From NCBI RefSeq assembly GCF_003334335.1, contig NZ_QOWQ01000028.1: 64,000 nt of DNA; one strand, 5' to 3'. The stretch comes from Escherichia coli (GTDB lineage: Bacteria; Pseudomonadota; Gammaproteobacteria; Enterobacterales; Enterobacteriaceae). This document shows, one piece after another, positions 12,001-15,000 of the stretch (position 1 is its first letter; each line of letters starts with the position of its first letter). Made by a program: the position numbers.

Positions 12001-15000
12001 GAAATAACGGATAACCATTCTTATGGACTGTGCCAGTTTGGTCGGTGGATTGATCATCTGGGGCCACTCGATAACGATGAATTACCTTACGTTCGGCTAA
12101 TGGATTCTGCCCATCAACATATGCATAACTGTGGTCGGGAATTAATGCTGGCTATTGTTGAAAATCACTGGCAGGACGCGCATTTCGACGCCTTTCAGGA
12201 GGGGTTGCTTTCTTTTACTGCGGCATTAACCGATTACAAAATTTATTTGCTGACGATCCGTAGCAATATGGATGTTTTGACGGGATTGCCGGGTCGTCGG
12301 GTTCTTGATGAATCCTTTGATCATCAGTTACGCAACGCTGAGCCTCTGAATCTTTATTTAATGTTGTTGGATATTGACCGATTTAAATTGGTTAATGATA
12401 CCTACGGGCATTTAATCGGCGATGTAGTATTACGCACCCTGGCAACTTACTTAGCCAGTTGGACGCGTGATTACGAAACGGTTTATCGCTACGGGGGCGA
12501 AGAATTTATCATTATTGTCAAAGCGGCTAATGATGAAGAAGCATGTCGTGCAGGTGTCAGAATTTGCCAGTTAGTCGATAACCATGCCATCACACATTCT
12601 GAAGGGCATATCAACATTACCGTGACAGCAGGTGTGAGTCGCGCATTTCCTGAAGAGCCTCTGGATGTGGTCATTGGAAGAGCGGACCGGGCAATGTATG
12701 AGGGTAAGCAAACCGGAAGAAATCGCTGCATGTTTATTGACGAACAAAATGTGATTAACCGAGTTTAAGCTCCGTTTAACATTCATTGAGAAAACTGATG
12801 CTACTGTGTCAACGATTCGTTATCAGTGCAGGAAAATGCCTGTTAGCGTAAAAGCAAAACACAAATCTATCCATGCAAGCATTCACCGCCGGTTTACTGG
12901 CGGTTTTTTTTCGCCGTCATAAAAATCAGGCCCCTTGTACACAACTGTAACAAGGGGCCGGTTAGGTGAGGGATTATCTCCGTTCATTAGTCATCCCATT
13001 TGTGGCTGAAATACGCGGCCAGAAAACCAGAAAATAAAATTATTCCCAGTACGGCCATAAAAGCATTCATATTACCCAGCATTATTTGCCTCCGTTTATG
13101 GTGTGGTGTGTTTCCTCGCTTACCTTAATTTTCATCTCAATGAGAAAGATATTAGCAGAGGTAACCTAAACGAAGGCTGAATTAAATCTTTATTGTGTTC
13201 GACTTAAATCAACAAAGCGCGGGCTGCCCCCACGGTCTTGCTCGAATCCCTTTTAACATCAGCACCCACGCAGCAATGATCACCAACGCTAAGATGACAA
13301 ACAGCGAGGAAGGCGGCAGGCTGGTTAGCACTACGCCACTCACTAATGGGTTAATCGCGGCACCAAGCCAGCCTAAAGACTGGGCGGAAAAATAGCTGGC
13401 TTTCATTTCTGGCGGCGCAATATGGTCAATCAACATATACTCGCCCGGCGCATAAATGATTTCACCGACAGTAAATACCGCAGCTGACATACCCCACAAT
13501 AGCAGGCTGTTGCCGGAAAAAATAAAACCGACCAGACCGATGACGAAACAGAGGGTGCCTGCTGTCATCAGCGCGCGGATGTTAGCCGGGTTAAGTCGGC
13601 GGCCCACGGAATATTGCAACGTAACCACCATGGCAGCATTCACCGGAAGAACAACCGCGACCACCTTTTCGGCAAAATCCCCATCAGCAATCACCATCAC
13701 ATATTGTGAAATGCATGAAGCAAATGCGCCGCTTACAAAAGAAGCCAGAAAACCAGAGCAGGTAAACCACAACAGTGCTTTATCTTGTAATAAAACTTTC
13801 GGCGACCAGACACTGCCTGTTTCCGTGGCGATGATTTTCTCGCTGCGCTTTACCCAAATTTGAATGAAAAGCATGGGAAACGCGGAACAGATAGCTGCCA
13901 GCCAGAAGGGCAGATTGATGCTCTGCATCACCAACAGCGTGCCGAGCGGCGGACCGATGGTCCAGCCAATGTTTAGCATGGTGTAGTTGATTGAGAAGAT
14001 TTTCGTTTTGCTGGTGGACGAAAGATTGTCGGCAAACCAGGCTTTCAGCACGGTAGCAAAAACAGAATAGGCGCAGTTAATGAGGGCAAAAAAGAGCACA
14101 ACCAGCGTCACGTTATTCACTAAAGGAATGGCAATAAAACCGCTGGCGAAGGCGGTAATTGCCAGTAACATATAGCGTTTCTTGTCGAACTTATCCGCCA
14201 GGATACCAAAACCGAGGCTAAAAACGACGCCAATAGTGAGCGCAATTGTCATCGCATAACCGATTAGATCGACACTCAGGCTGTACTGGCGACTCAAGTA
14301 AATGGTCATAAATGGCAGCGTAGCGCCGCGTCCGATGGTTAATAACAACGACGAGGCAAGAAGGGCGCTGGTAGAGCGTCGTAGGGATAAGTTCATTTGT
14401 CTGTCCGGCAGTGCGTTTCGTTATGTTTTGTTTTAGAGATGTAAAGAAATAGCATGGCAAAAATCCGAAGTATAGCGACTTATTTGCGCATTAATGCCGT
14501 CGTAACCGGCGACTAACGAATCAACTGTTAAAGAAAAGTAAATTCAGCTAAGTTGATTGCTTACAAAAGATGAAATTCAGAGGCGGTAGAATGTCGCGAA
14601 AAGATGGGGTGTTGGCGCTACTGGTAGTGGTCGTATGGGGGCTAAATTTTGTGGTCATCAAAGTGGGGCTTCATAACATGCCACCGCTGATGCTGGCCGG
14701 TTTGCGCTTTATGCTGGTCGCTTTTCCGGCTATCTTTTTTGTCGCACGACCGAAAGTACCACTGAATTTGCTGCTGGGGTATGGATTAACCATCAGTTTT
14801 GCGCAGTTTGCTTTTCTTTTTTGTGCCATTAACTTCGGTATGCCTGCTGGACTGGCTTCGCTGGTGTTACAGGCACAGGCGTTTTTTACTATCATGCTTG
14901 GCGCGTTTACTTTCGGGGAGCGACTGCATGGCAAACAATTGGCGGGGATCGCCTTAGCGATTTTTGGCGTACTGGTGTTAATCGAAGATAGTCTGAACGG

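What the first reader, a model, noticed from the sequence alone, without database searches (positions are those of the whole stretch)
12780..13090. Convergent small-gene pair: candidate sRNA with strong terminator and a 31-codon membrane-protein gene
A 31-aa single-TM ORF (12987-13082, minus) is readable by hand but absent from the ORF track. About 75 bp away on the plus strand is a textbook intrinsic terminator (stem plus eight T, 12886-12911) with no coding partner. That is consistent with the sRNA MgrR lying convergent to mgtS. The sRNA 5' end cannot be fixed from sequence alone, and I did not find a clean PhoP box.
Basis: partly seen in the sequence, partly recalled or inferred. Interest (0 to 1): 0.3.

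Follow-up and report, generated by a model that had tools for sequence, protein, structure and literature searches.

The report
MgrR sRNA facing the mgtS gene

Summary
The observation and the interpretation both hold. The window is a close relative of E. coli K-12, in reverse orientation. The 31-codon ORF at 12987-13082 (minus) is mgtS (NCBIfam equivalog, 76 bits against a cutoff of 35).

- **PhoP boxes.** Both genes have one, and they share an architecture: a direct repeat, 12 bp, then an extended -10. The mgrR box is 12773-12789 and the mgtS box is 13183-13167. Each is conserved across Enterobacteriaceae genera.
- **A second terminator.** The mgtS strand has its own intrinsic terminator (12959-12919), supported by covariation.
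- **A third gene.** mgtT (12987-12883, 34 codons) overlaps the mgtS stop, runs through that terminator and ends antisense inside the MgrR terminator.

Published Term-seq places the 3' ends at 12904/12909 for MgrR and at 12924 for the mgtS strand. The two main transcripts therefore abut without overlapping, and the mgtS-strand end falls inside mgtT.

Only the mgtT start codon and about its first eight codons are conserved outside Escherichia.

The locus is already known and of low interest. The window also carries a private MgtS V7A substitution.

The parts
12773..12789 (+). PhoP box of the mgrR promoter: CGTTTA-acatt-CATTGA, at -41 to -25 relative to the annotated start
   Evidence: Across 92 distinct orthologous upstream regions, GTTTA (12774-12778) is 97-100% conserved. 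TT (12786-12787) is 99%, G12788 is 80% and A12789 is 88%. Flanking columns are about 25-50% conserved.
12799..12807 (+). Extended -10 of mgrR: TGcTACTGT, 12 bp between the PhoP box and the -10 hexamer
   Evidence: T12799 is 95% conserved; G12800, T12802, A12803 and T12807 are 100% conserved in 92 sequences.
12814..12911 (+). mgrR, the 98-nt Hfq-dependent sRNA MgrR
   Evidence: Rfam RF01407 at 281 bits. The K-12 ncRNA b4698 maps here with 100% identity. The published length and U55/A68 numbering fit this start (PMC6239178).
12818..12848 (+). MgrR 5' stem-loop
   Evidence: Present in the MFE and centroid folds. The 5' segment folds into at least 6 base pairs in all 94 distinct orthologues although their sequences differ; the 16 printed show a hairpin at the equivalent place.
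12868..12881 (+). MgrR target-pairing region U55-A68 (UAUCCAUGCAAGCA), single-stranded and preceded by the A-rich (ARN)-like tract
   Evidence: Unpaired in the fold. Its role in pairing with eptB and ygdQ mRNAs comes from PMC6239178. It is identical to K-12.
12885..12911 (+). MgrR intrinsic terminator: 8-pair stem, UUUA loop, U8 tail
   Evidence: Found by the terminator scan and in the fold. Seven pairs are kept in 94 orthologues with A-U to G-C swaps at one pair. K-12 Term-seq 3' ends map to window 12904 and 12909.
13167..13183 (-). PhoP box of the mgtS promoter: AATTCA-gcctt-CGTTTA, read on the minus strand from 13183 to 13167
   Evidence: In 34 distinct orthologous upstream regions, T13181, T13180 and A13178 are in 34/34. 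G13171 is in 33/34, T13170 33/34, T13169 34/34, T13168 33/34 and A13167 34/34.
13149..13157 (-). Extended -10 of mgtS: TGcTAATAT, 12 bp between the PhoP box and the -10 hexamer
   Evidence: G13156 is in 32/34, T13154 32/34, A13153 34/34 and T13149 34/34. A composite pattern written from the two promoters matches only these two sites in the window, against 0.04 expected.
13141..13141 (-). Predicted mgtS transcription start (a conserved A, 7 nt after the -10); an inference, not mapped
   Evidence: A in 32/34 sequences. With the Term-seq end at 12924 this gives a 218-nt mRNA, compared with ~190 nt for the Salmonella yneM transcript (PMC2515195).
13114..13125 (-). Conserved element in the mgtS 5' leader (AAGGTAAGcGAGG); role unknown
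   Evidence: GAGG (13117-13114) is in 34/34 sequences and GGTAAG is in 29-32/34. No significant structure is predicted for the leader.
12987..13082 (-). mgtS (yneM), a 31-residue single-pass membrane protein; this window encodes A at residue 7 where K-12 has V
   Evidence: NCBIfam NF033842 equivalog at 76 bits against a cutoff of 35. Annotated as b4599 in K-12. Hydropathy 2.21. The SNP is at 13063.
12919..12959 (-). mgtS intrinsic terminator: a 13-pair hairpin (12959-12929) followed by UGAUUUUUAU
   Evidence: Present in the fold. In the 38-sequence alignment, 8 of the 10 consensus pairs show compensatory double changes and a T-run always follows. The K-12 Term-seq 3' end at 1622804 maps to window 12924, in two conditions.
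12883..12987 (-). mgtT, a 34-codon ORF whose ATG overlaps the mgtS stop (TAATGA). It runs through the mgtS terminator, and its last 29 nt are antisense to the MgrR terminator.
   Evidence: Annotated as b4775 in K-12 and by PGAP. Listed by the ORF scan. Found by ribosome profiling and detected as a tagged protein (10.1101/511675). Only the start and the first ~8 codons are conserved across genera.

Best explanation
The region is the dgcZ-mgrR-mgtT/mgtS-ydeE locus of an E. coli strain close to K-12. It contains two convergent transcription units, each driven by a PhoP-type promoter: a PhoP box, 12 bp, then an extended -10.

**Plus strand.** A 98-nt Hfq-dependent sRNA, MgrR, is made. It consists of a 5' stem-loop, an A-rich tract, a single-stranded pairing region and a terminator with a U8 tail. 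According to the literature it base-pairs with mRNAs such as eptB and ygdQ.

**Minus strand.** An mRNA of about 218 nt encodes the 31-residue inner-membrane protein MgtS. According to the literature MgtS protects the magnesium transporter it binds from FtsH-dependent degradation, and acts on the PitA phosphate symporter, to raise intracellular magnesium. This mRNA ends at its own hairpin terminator, about 14-20 nt short of the MgrR 3' end, so the two main transcripts abut without overlapping.

**mgtT.** This 34-codon ORF is translationally coupled to the mgtS stop. It can be translated in full only from transcripts that read through the mgtS terminator.

**Shown here:** identity, coordinates, hairpins, covariation, promoter-motif conservation, and the mapping of published 3' ends onto the window.

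**Taken from the literature:** PhoP dependence, Hfq binding, the targets, MgtS function and MgtT detection.

**Inferred:** the mgtS transcription start, and the need for read-through to make full-length MgtT.
For: - Rfam RF01407 matches full-length at 281 bits.
- The region is 470/471 identical and colinear with K-12. That maps mgrR (b4698) to 12814-12911, mgtS (b4599) to 13082-12987 and mgtT (b4775) to 12987-12883.
- NF033842 'protein MgtS' scores 76 bits against a cutoff of 35.
- The locus is present in 5,417 of 5,426 complete E. coli genomes.
- The MgrR terminator is found by the scan and in the fold. It is kept in 94 orthologues.
- The mgtS terminator shows compensatory changes at 8 of 10 pairs in 38 orthologues.
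- Conserved PhoP boxes and extended -10 elements occur at both promoters with identical spacing.
- Term-seq 3' ends map to window 12904 and 12909 on the plus strand and to 12924 on the minus strand (PMC7815308).
- mgrR and yneM are directly PhoP-activated (PMC3536696).
- MgrR is a 98-nt Class II Hfq sRNA pairing through U55-A68 (PMC6239178).
- mgtS and mgtT form a PhoQP-dependent operon (PMC11429745).
- MgtS inhibits FtsH-dependent degradation of the magnesium transporter it targets (PMC12648545).
- STnc560 (~90 nt, 29-fold Hfq-enriched) lies convergent to the yneM transcript in Salmonella (PMC2515195).
Against: Nothing contradicts the identification. The limits are these:
- I found no 5'-end data. 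Two public TSS supplements gave no hit for this region, and the original MgrR paper is not held. The mgrR start therefore rests on annotation and published numbering, and the mgtS start on promoter geometry.
- The comparative set was retrieved with an 18-mer from the MgrR pairing region. Conservation of that region in the set is circular, and more diverged orthologues were missed.
- PhoP binding, Hfq binding and target regulation cannot be tested from sequence.
- The window's MgtS carries V7A, which is absent from all 5,415 matching complete E. coli genomes. Its effect is unknown.
Confidence: 0.95

Rival explanations
1. The plus-strand RNA has no promoter of its own. It is only the 3' UTR of dgcZ, released by processing, and the terminator at 12885-12911 is simply the dgcZ terminator.
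For: dgcZ ends at 12768, 45 nt before the MgrR start, and the scan finds no terminator between them. Some dgcZ transcripts therefore probably do run to the MgrR terminator.
Against: A PhoP box plus extended -10 is 95-100% conserved at fixed spacing upstream of the RNA in 92 orthologous regions, including genera where the upstream flank is unrelated in sequence. An mgrR promoter-lacZ fusion ending at +10 behaves as a PhoP-regulated promoter (PMC3536696). In Salmonella the RNA lies in the ydeI/ydeE spacer.
Confidence: 0.03
2. The plus-strand transcript is a small mRNA for the 38-codon ORF at 12806-12922 rather than a non-coding RNA.
For: The mechanical ORF list contains a GTG-initiated 38-codon ORF across this stretch.
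Against: The ORF would start upstream of the annotated 5' end (12814). The 5' half of the RNA differs by indels of various lengths between genera while its hairpin is kept. The match is to an sRNA covariance model, and the RNA is characterised as an Hfq-dependent base-pairing sRNA (PMC6239178).
Confidence: 0.01
3. mgtT encodes a conserved, functional 34-residue protein that is a third effector of the low-Mg2+ response.
For: It is annotated in K-12 and by PGAP. It shows a ribosome-profiling start signal and an epitope-tagged product, and is induced in low Mg2+ in a PhoQ-dependent way (10.1101/511675 and PMC11429745). Its ATG is present in all 38 distinct orthologues that have the second hairpin.
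Against: - ORF length ranges from 7 to 83 codons across genera with unrelated C-termini. It is frameshifted even in E. whittamii and absent in Kluyvera.
- Within Escherichia, 15 of 17 nucleotide differences in the mgtT frame are non-synonymous.
- The residues that look conserved (RPLV, KGP) are the two arms of the covarying terminator stem.
- The mapped 3' end at 12924 cuts the ORF at codon 22.
- There is no NCBIfam model for it.
- Deletion and overexpression gave no phenotype (PMC11429745).
Confidence: 0.15

Closest known systems
MgrR of E. coli K-12 (b4698; Rfam RF01407, named STnc560 in Salmonella)
   Same: It is 100% identical over all 98 nt, with the same neighbours (dgcZ upstream, mgtS convergent). 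It has the same terminator and pairing region, and a PhoP-type promoter.
   Different: Nothing differs in the RNA itself. The 214-nt Rfam model (12780-12993) is much wider than the real RNA: it includes promoter sequence and the reverse complement of the mgtS terminator and mgtT.
MgtS (YneM) of E. coli K-12 (b4599; NCBIfam NF033842)
   Same: It has 31 residues, one hydrophobic helix, the conserved C-terminal SHKWDD, a PhoP-type promoter and the same position.
   Different: There is one substitution, V7A (13063 G instead of A), at the N-terminal edge of the helix. It is not seen in any of 5,415 complete E. coli genomes, where V is usual; relatives from other genera carry V, I or L at this residue.
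MgtT of E. coli K-12 (b4775)
   Same: The nucleotide sequence and the overlap with the mgtS stop codon are identical.
   Different: Nothing differs from K-12. As a family it is not conserved beyond Escherichia except for the start codon and about 8 codons.
PhoP-activated promoters with a (T/G)GTTTA-N5-(T/G)GTTTA box (consensus recalled from my own knowledge of mgtA, mgrB and phoPQ P1)
   Same: Both promoters have a direct repeat with an 11-bp period lying 12 bp upstream of the -10, and no recognisable -35 hexamer.
   Different: Each box has only one consensus half-site: the promoter-distal one in mgrR and the promoter-proximal one in mgtS. The other half keeps only TT and the final A. Both promoters also carry a conserved TG extended -10.

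Membership tests
Rfam RF01407 (STnc560 / MgrR sRNA) | Covariance-model score at or above the curated gathering score | tested here: met
   281.1 bits against a gathering score of 55, E = 3e-64, model positions 1-214 of 214.
Rfam RF01407 (STnc560 / MgrR sRNA) | Orthology with the characterised E. coli K-12 gene: sequence identity and the same neighbours | tested here: met
   98/98 identical to b4698. The gene order ydeI-dgcZ-mgrR-mgtT/mgtS-ydeE-eamA is the same.
Rfam RF01407 (STnc560 / MgrR sRNA) | Rho-independent terminator with a U-tail at which the transcript ends | tested here: met
   An 8-pair stem plus U8. The pairs are kept in 94 orthologues. Published K-12 Term-seq ends map inside the U-tract at 12904 and 12909; they were measured in K-12, not in this strain.
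Rfam RF01407 (STnc560 / MgrR sRNA) | Own promoter under PhoQ/PhoP control | tested here: met
   The sequence part is met: a conserved PhoP box at 12773-12789 and an extended -10 at 12799-12807. PhoP dependence itself comes from the literature only (PMC3536696).
Rfam RF01407 (STnc560 / MgrR sRNA) | Hfq binding and base-pairing repression of targets such as eptB and ygdQ | not testable with these tools
   The sequence features that serve this are present and identical to K-12: the U8 tail, the A-rich tract and the single-stranded U55-A68 region (PMC6239178).
NCBIfam NF033842 (protein MgtS) | Equivalog HMM score above the curated cutoff over the full length | tested here: met
   76 bits against a cutoff of 35, residues 1-31 aligned to profile positions 1-31.
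NCBIfam NF033842 (protein MgtS) | About 31 residues with a single transmembrane helix | tested here: met
   31 residues. The best 19-residue Kyte-Doolittle mean is 2.21, for AFMAVLGIILFSGFLAAYF.
NCBIfam NF033842 (protein MgtS) | PhoP-dependent induction at low Mg2+ | tested here: met
   The sequence part is met: a conserved PhoP box at 13183-13167 and an extended -10 at 13157-13149. Induction itself comes from the literature (PMC3536696, PMC11429745).
NCBIfam NF033842 (protein MgtS) | Binding to the magnesium transporter and to PitA | not testable with these tools
   Literature only (PMC12648545 and the titles it cites). The effect of V7A is unknown.
MgtT (b4775) | ORF identical to the K-12 gene and overlapping the mgtS stop codon | tested here: met
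   12987-12883, identical to K-12.
MgtT (b4775) | Conserved as a protein-coding gene: length, frame and purifying selection | tested here: not met
   ORF length is 7-83 codons with unrelated C-termini, and Kluyvera lacks it. Within Escherichia, 15 of 17 differences are non-synonymous. The middle of the ORF is a covarying terminator hairpin. Only codons 1-8 show a weak excess of third-position variation.
PhoP-box promoter | Two hexamer half-sites in direct repeat with an 11-bp period, next to the -10 in place of a -35 hexamer | tested here: met
   Both promoters have one consensus half-site (yGTTTA) and one degenerate half-site, with 12 bp between box and -10 hexamer, conserved across genera. 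A strict consensus search with 2 mismatches was not enriched in the window as a whole (29 matches against 20 expected), so it is the conservation that carries the claim.

The most novel reading that the evidence does not exclude
The conserved unit downstream of mgtS may not be the 34-residue MgtT protein. It may instead be a translationally coupled mini-ORF: an ATG overlapping the mgtS stop plus about 8 codons (MN[GD]DNPxP) that delivers ribosomes to the foot of the mgtS terminator hairpin. Ribosomes entering the hairpin could lower termination efficiency. That would set how much transcription reads through antisense across mgrR, and so link mgtS translation to MgrR output in the convergent pair.
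Probability: 0.08. Interest if true: 0.45.

Novelty: already known. Interest (0 to 1): 0.12.

Why it matters
It matters little as a discovery, because MgrR, MgtS and MgtT are all annotated in E. coli K-12 and have been studied experimentally.

The check is still useful in three ways.
- It shows that a bare-sequence reader can recognise an sRNA gene from its terminator and context.
- It fixes exact coordinates and both promoters. This is worth having because the automatic annotation of at least one other E. coli genome (C600) lists mgtS and mgtT here but no mgrR feature.
- It shows that the annotated mgtT ORF contains the working mgtS terminator and is conserved only in its first few codons. 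That should temper treating MgtT as a conserved protein.

Tried and rejected
- **First PhoP-box call.** A consensus search with 2 mismatches paired AGTTTA (12762-12767) with CGTTTA (12773-12778). I rejected this as the functional pair because the upstream half-site is only 21-39% conserved in 92 orthologues. The conserved partner lies downstream, at 12784-12789.
- **Original papers.** The original MgrR paper (PMC2841474 / PubMed 19889087) and the two MgtS papers (PMC5465934, PMC6351178) are not held. Their content is cited only through papers that quote them.
- **5'-end tables.** The Cappable-seq and SMRT-Cappable-seq supplements gave no hit for K-12 coordinates near either predicted start.
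- **Literature link.** No held paper contains both 'STnc560' and 'MgrR'. The link was made through the Salmonella table in PMC2515195 and through the Rfam match landing on the K-12 mgrR gene.
- **MgrR 5' hairpin.** RNAalifold on the MAFFT alignment did not recover it, because that part aligns poorly. Folding each orthologue separately gave at least 6 pairs in the 5' segment of all 94.
- **Whole mgtS mRNA.** Its fold is not more stable than shuffles (z = -0.53), so no leader structure is claimed.
- **MgtT family model.** NCBIfam has none.
- **Composite promoter pattern.** The pattern was written from these two promoters. Its two hits are therefore by construction; only the absence of other hits is informative.
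Full report
**What is in the sequence.**
The stretch 12740-13210 is colinear with E. coli K-12 MG1655, in reverse orientation (window x = 1635728 minus the K-12 coordinate). It differs by one base in 471. The surrounding ORFs are ydeI, dgcZ, ydeE and eamA. A 551-base query from this region finds a match in 5,417 of 5,426 complete E. coli genomes.

The curated K-12 record annotates three features here:
- mgrR (ncRNA, b4698), mapping to window 12814-12911 on the plus strand.
- mgtS (b4599), mapping to 13082-12987 on the minus strand.
- mgtT (b4775), mapping to 12987-12883 on the minus strand.

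**Checking the observation.**
The 31-codon ORF is in the mechanical ORF list. It has a GGAGG 6 nt upstream of its ATG, and its one hydrophobic stretch scores 2.21 on a 19-residue Kyte-Doolittle window.

The plus-strand terminator is found by the scan as an 8-pair stem with 6 G-C pairs at 12885-12904, followed by the T run. It dominates the fold of the 98-nt RNA.

The published numbering, in which U55 and A68 bound the pairing region (PMC6239178), fits a start at 12814 and not at 12815.

**Identity.**
Rfam RF01407 (STnc560) matches over its full length at 281 bits against a gathering score of 55. In the study that named it, STnc560 is a ~90-nt RNA, enriched 29-fold with Hfq, in the Salmonella ydeI/ydeE spacer. 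It lies convergent to STnc570, which that study labels as the yneM ORF transcript of ~190 nt (PMC2515195). That is the same arrangement as here.

The Rfam model (12780-12993) is much wider than the real RNA. It takes in promoter sequence and the complement of the mgtS terminator.

The small protein matches the NCBIfam equivalog 'protein MgtS' at 76 bits against a cutoff of 35.

**Promoters.**
A consensus search with two mismatches gave AGTTTA-N5-CGTTTA at 12762-12778, but such loose matches are not enriched in the window (29 against 20 expected).

To test conservation I retrieved 106 stretches from a collection holding one genome per species, using an 18-mer from the MgrR pairing region. Eight were chance hits in unrelated phyla; the rest were Enterobacteriaceae.

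*mgrR promoter.* In 92 distinct upstream regions:
- GTTTA at 12774-12778 is 97-100% conserved.
- TTGA at 12786-12789 is 80-99% conserved.
- TG at 12799-12800 is 95-100% conserved.
- TA at 12802-12803 and T at 12807 are 100% conserved.
- Neighbouring columns are about 25-50% conserved.
- The upstream AGTTTA is not conserved.

The mgrR promoter is therefore CGTTTA-acatt-CATTGA, 12 bp, then TGcTACTGT, with the annotated start 7 nt further on.

*mgtS promoter.* The same architecture appears on the minus strand (34 distinct sequences):
- The box is AATTCA-gcctt-CGTTTA (13183-13167).
- After 12 bp comes TGcTAATAT (13157-13149).
- A conserved A lies at 13141, which I take as the likely start.

A pattern written from the two promoters matches only these two places in the 64-kb window (0.04 expected). 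That pattern is post hoc, so the cross-genus conservation is the real evidence.

Direct PhoP activation of both genes is reported in PMC3536696.

**Transcript ends.**
Published Term-seq tables for K-12 (PMC7815308, supplementary file 1) list:
- Very strong minus-strand 3' ends at 1622824 (two conditions) and 1622819 (one condition). These are window 12904 and 12909, both inside the U8 tract.
- A plus-strand 3' end at 1622804 in two conditions. This is window 12924.

The end at 12924 lies in the U-tract (UGAUUUUUAU) that follows a 13-pair hairpin at 12959-12929 on the mgtS strand. In 38 distinct orthologues this hairpin keeps its pairing, with compensatory double changes at 8 of the 10 consensus pairs, and a T-run always follows it.

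The MgrR terminator keeps all seven predicted pairs in 94 orthologues. The 5' segment of MgrR folds into at least 6 pairs in every one of them although the sequences differ.

The main transcripts thus end 14-20 nt apart and do not overlap. From 13141 to 12924 the mgtS mRNA would be 218 nt.

**mgtT.**
This 34-codon ORF starts at the ATG that overlaps the mgtS stop (TAATGA). It runs through the mgtS terminator, and its last 29 nt are antisense to the MgrR terminator.

Evidence that it is expressed:
- It was found by ribosome profiling.
- It was detected as a tagged protein, at lower levels than MgtS (10.1101/511675).
- It is induced with mgtS in a PhoQ-dependent way.
- It is not membrane-associated, and showed no deletion or overexpression phenotype (PMC11429745).

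Comparative results:
- The ATG is present in all 38 distinct orthologues that have the second hairpin.
- The first codons read MN[GD]DNPxP in most of them.
- Beyond that, ORF length runs from 7 to 83 codons and the C-termini are unrelated.
- E. whittamii is frameshifted.
- Kluyvera has neither the hairpin nor the ORF; its mgtS stop lies only a few bases from the complement of the MgrR U-tract.
- Within Escherichia, 15 of 17 nucleotide differences in the mgtT frame change the amino acid.
- The residues that look conserved in the middle of the ORF are the two arms of the terminator stem.
- The Term-seq end at 12924 falls on the first base of codon 22. Full-length MgtT can therefore be made only from read-through transcripts.
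- Codons 2-8 show slightly more variation at third positions (entropy 0.98, against 0.62 and 0.72). That is too weak to decide anything.
- NCBIfam has no MgtT model.

**How it works.**
Low Mg2+ activates PhoQ/PhoP, which switches on both convergent promoters.

MgrR is a Class II Hfq sRNA. It uses its single-stranded U55-A68 region to pair with mRNAs including eptB and ygdQ (PMC6239178; PMC7815308).

MgtS inhibits FtsH-dependent degradation of the magnesium transporter it binds (PMC12648545). The title of Yin et al. [quoted passage not shown]

These functional steps are taken from the literature. Here I have shown only that the sequence elements that serve them are present and identical to K-12, apart from MgtS V7A.

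**Linkage across genera.**
The convergent mgrR-mgtS pairing is not universal.
- mgtS lies within 350 nt downstream of mgrR in Escherichia, Salmonella, Citrobacter, Kosakonia, Kluyvera, Phytobacter, some Pluralibacter and Yokenella.
- It was not found within 350 nt in Klebsiella, Raoultella, Lelliottia, Leclercia, Silvania, Trabulsiella and most loci labelled Enterobacter.

**Verdict.**
The finding is real and correctly interpreted, but it is a known and annotated locus. The corrections are:
- a one-base coordinate shift;
- the two PhoP boxes;
- the second terminator;
- mgtT.

Interest is low.

Noticed in passing
window 13063: The only difference from K-12 in 12740-13210 is G instead of A at 13063, which changes MgtS Val7 to Ala. 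None of the 5,415 complete E. coli genomes that match a 71-base query around it is 100% identical, so the variant is private to this sequence.
   Followed up: partly
window 45535-45551 (+), with cATAAT at 45563-45568: A perfect-consensus PhoP box (TGTTTAgtcacGGTTTA) is followed 11 bp later by a good -10. I estimate about 0.03 perfect boxes by chance in the window. It lies in the yneL-ydeT spacer. In strain EC958 the box is still a perfect consensus (TGTTTAgtcgcTGTTTA) and lies about 275 nt upstream of a fimbrial major-subunit gene; from the shorter match I infer that this gene was lost by a deletion in K-12-like strains. No held paper mentions both ydeT and PhoP.
   Followed up: partly
window 13114-13125 (-): The mgtS 5' leader contains a strongly conserved element, AAGGTAAGnGAGG, about 20 nt upstream of the real Shine-Dalgarno. 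GAGG is present in 34/34 orthologues. No stable leader structure is predicted, and I know of no role for it.
   Followed up: no
window 12768-12814: dgcZ ends at 12768, and the scan finds no terminator before the MgrR terminator. Some dgcZ transcripts probably read into mgrR and end at its terminator, which would give dgcZ mRNAs that carry the MgrR sequence.
   Followed up: no
L015 (Enterobacteriaceae bacterium RIT691), matches at 1438-1455 and 3032-3049: This genome has two mgrR copies about 1.6 kb apart. Both carry the conserved promoter and terminator. mgtS was found within 350 nt of only one of them.
   Followed up: no
Kluyvera loci L020, L044, L048, L060, L106, L107: In Kluyvera the mgtS stop codon lies only a few bases from the complement of the MgrR U-tract, and there is no separate mgtS hairpin. 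The MgrR terminator may therefore serve both strands there.
   Followed up: no
L007, L097, L093: Some public records look mislabelled or contaminated. A 'Caldithrix' MAG contig carries an mgrR region 100% identical to E. coli. A 'Chryseobacterium sp. 18061' contig carries an enterobacterial mgrR-mgtS locus close to that of 'Citrobacter sp. 18056'. An 'uncultured Raoultella' MAG carries a Citrobacter braakii-like locus.
   Followed up: no
L001 (E. coli C600, PGAP annotation): The automatic RefSeq annotation of this genome lists mgtS and mgtT but no mgrR feature, although the sequence is present. The curated K-12 record has mgrR.
   Followed up: no
window 1-3400: The window is a close relative of K-12, not MG1655 itself. 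There are 80 differences over 63.3 kb, 58 of them in 656-3400 (the Qin prophage tail-fibre region). Window 1-655 does not align colinearly with K-12. An Rfam IS009 match lies at 1187-1385.
   Followed up: partly
window 42133-42149 (+): A second near-consensus PhoP box (TGTTTAgccatCGTTTA, one mismatch) maps inside the yneO pseudogene. It is possibly a chance match.
   Followed up: no
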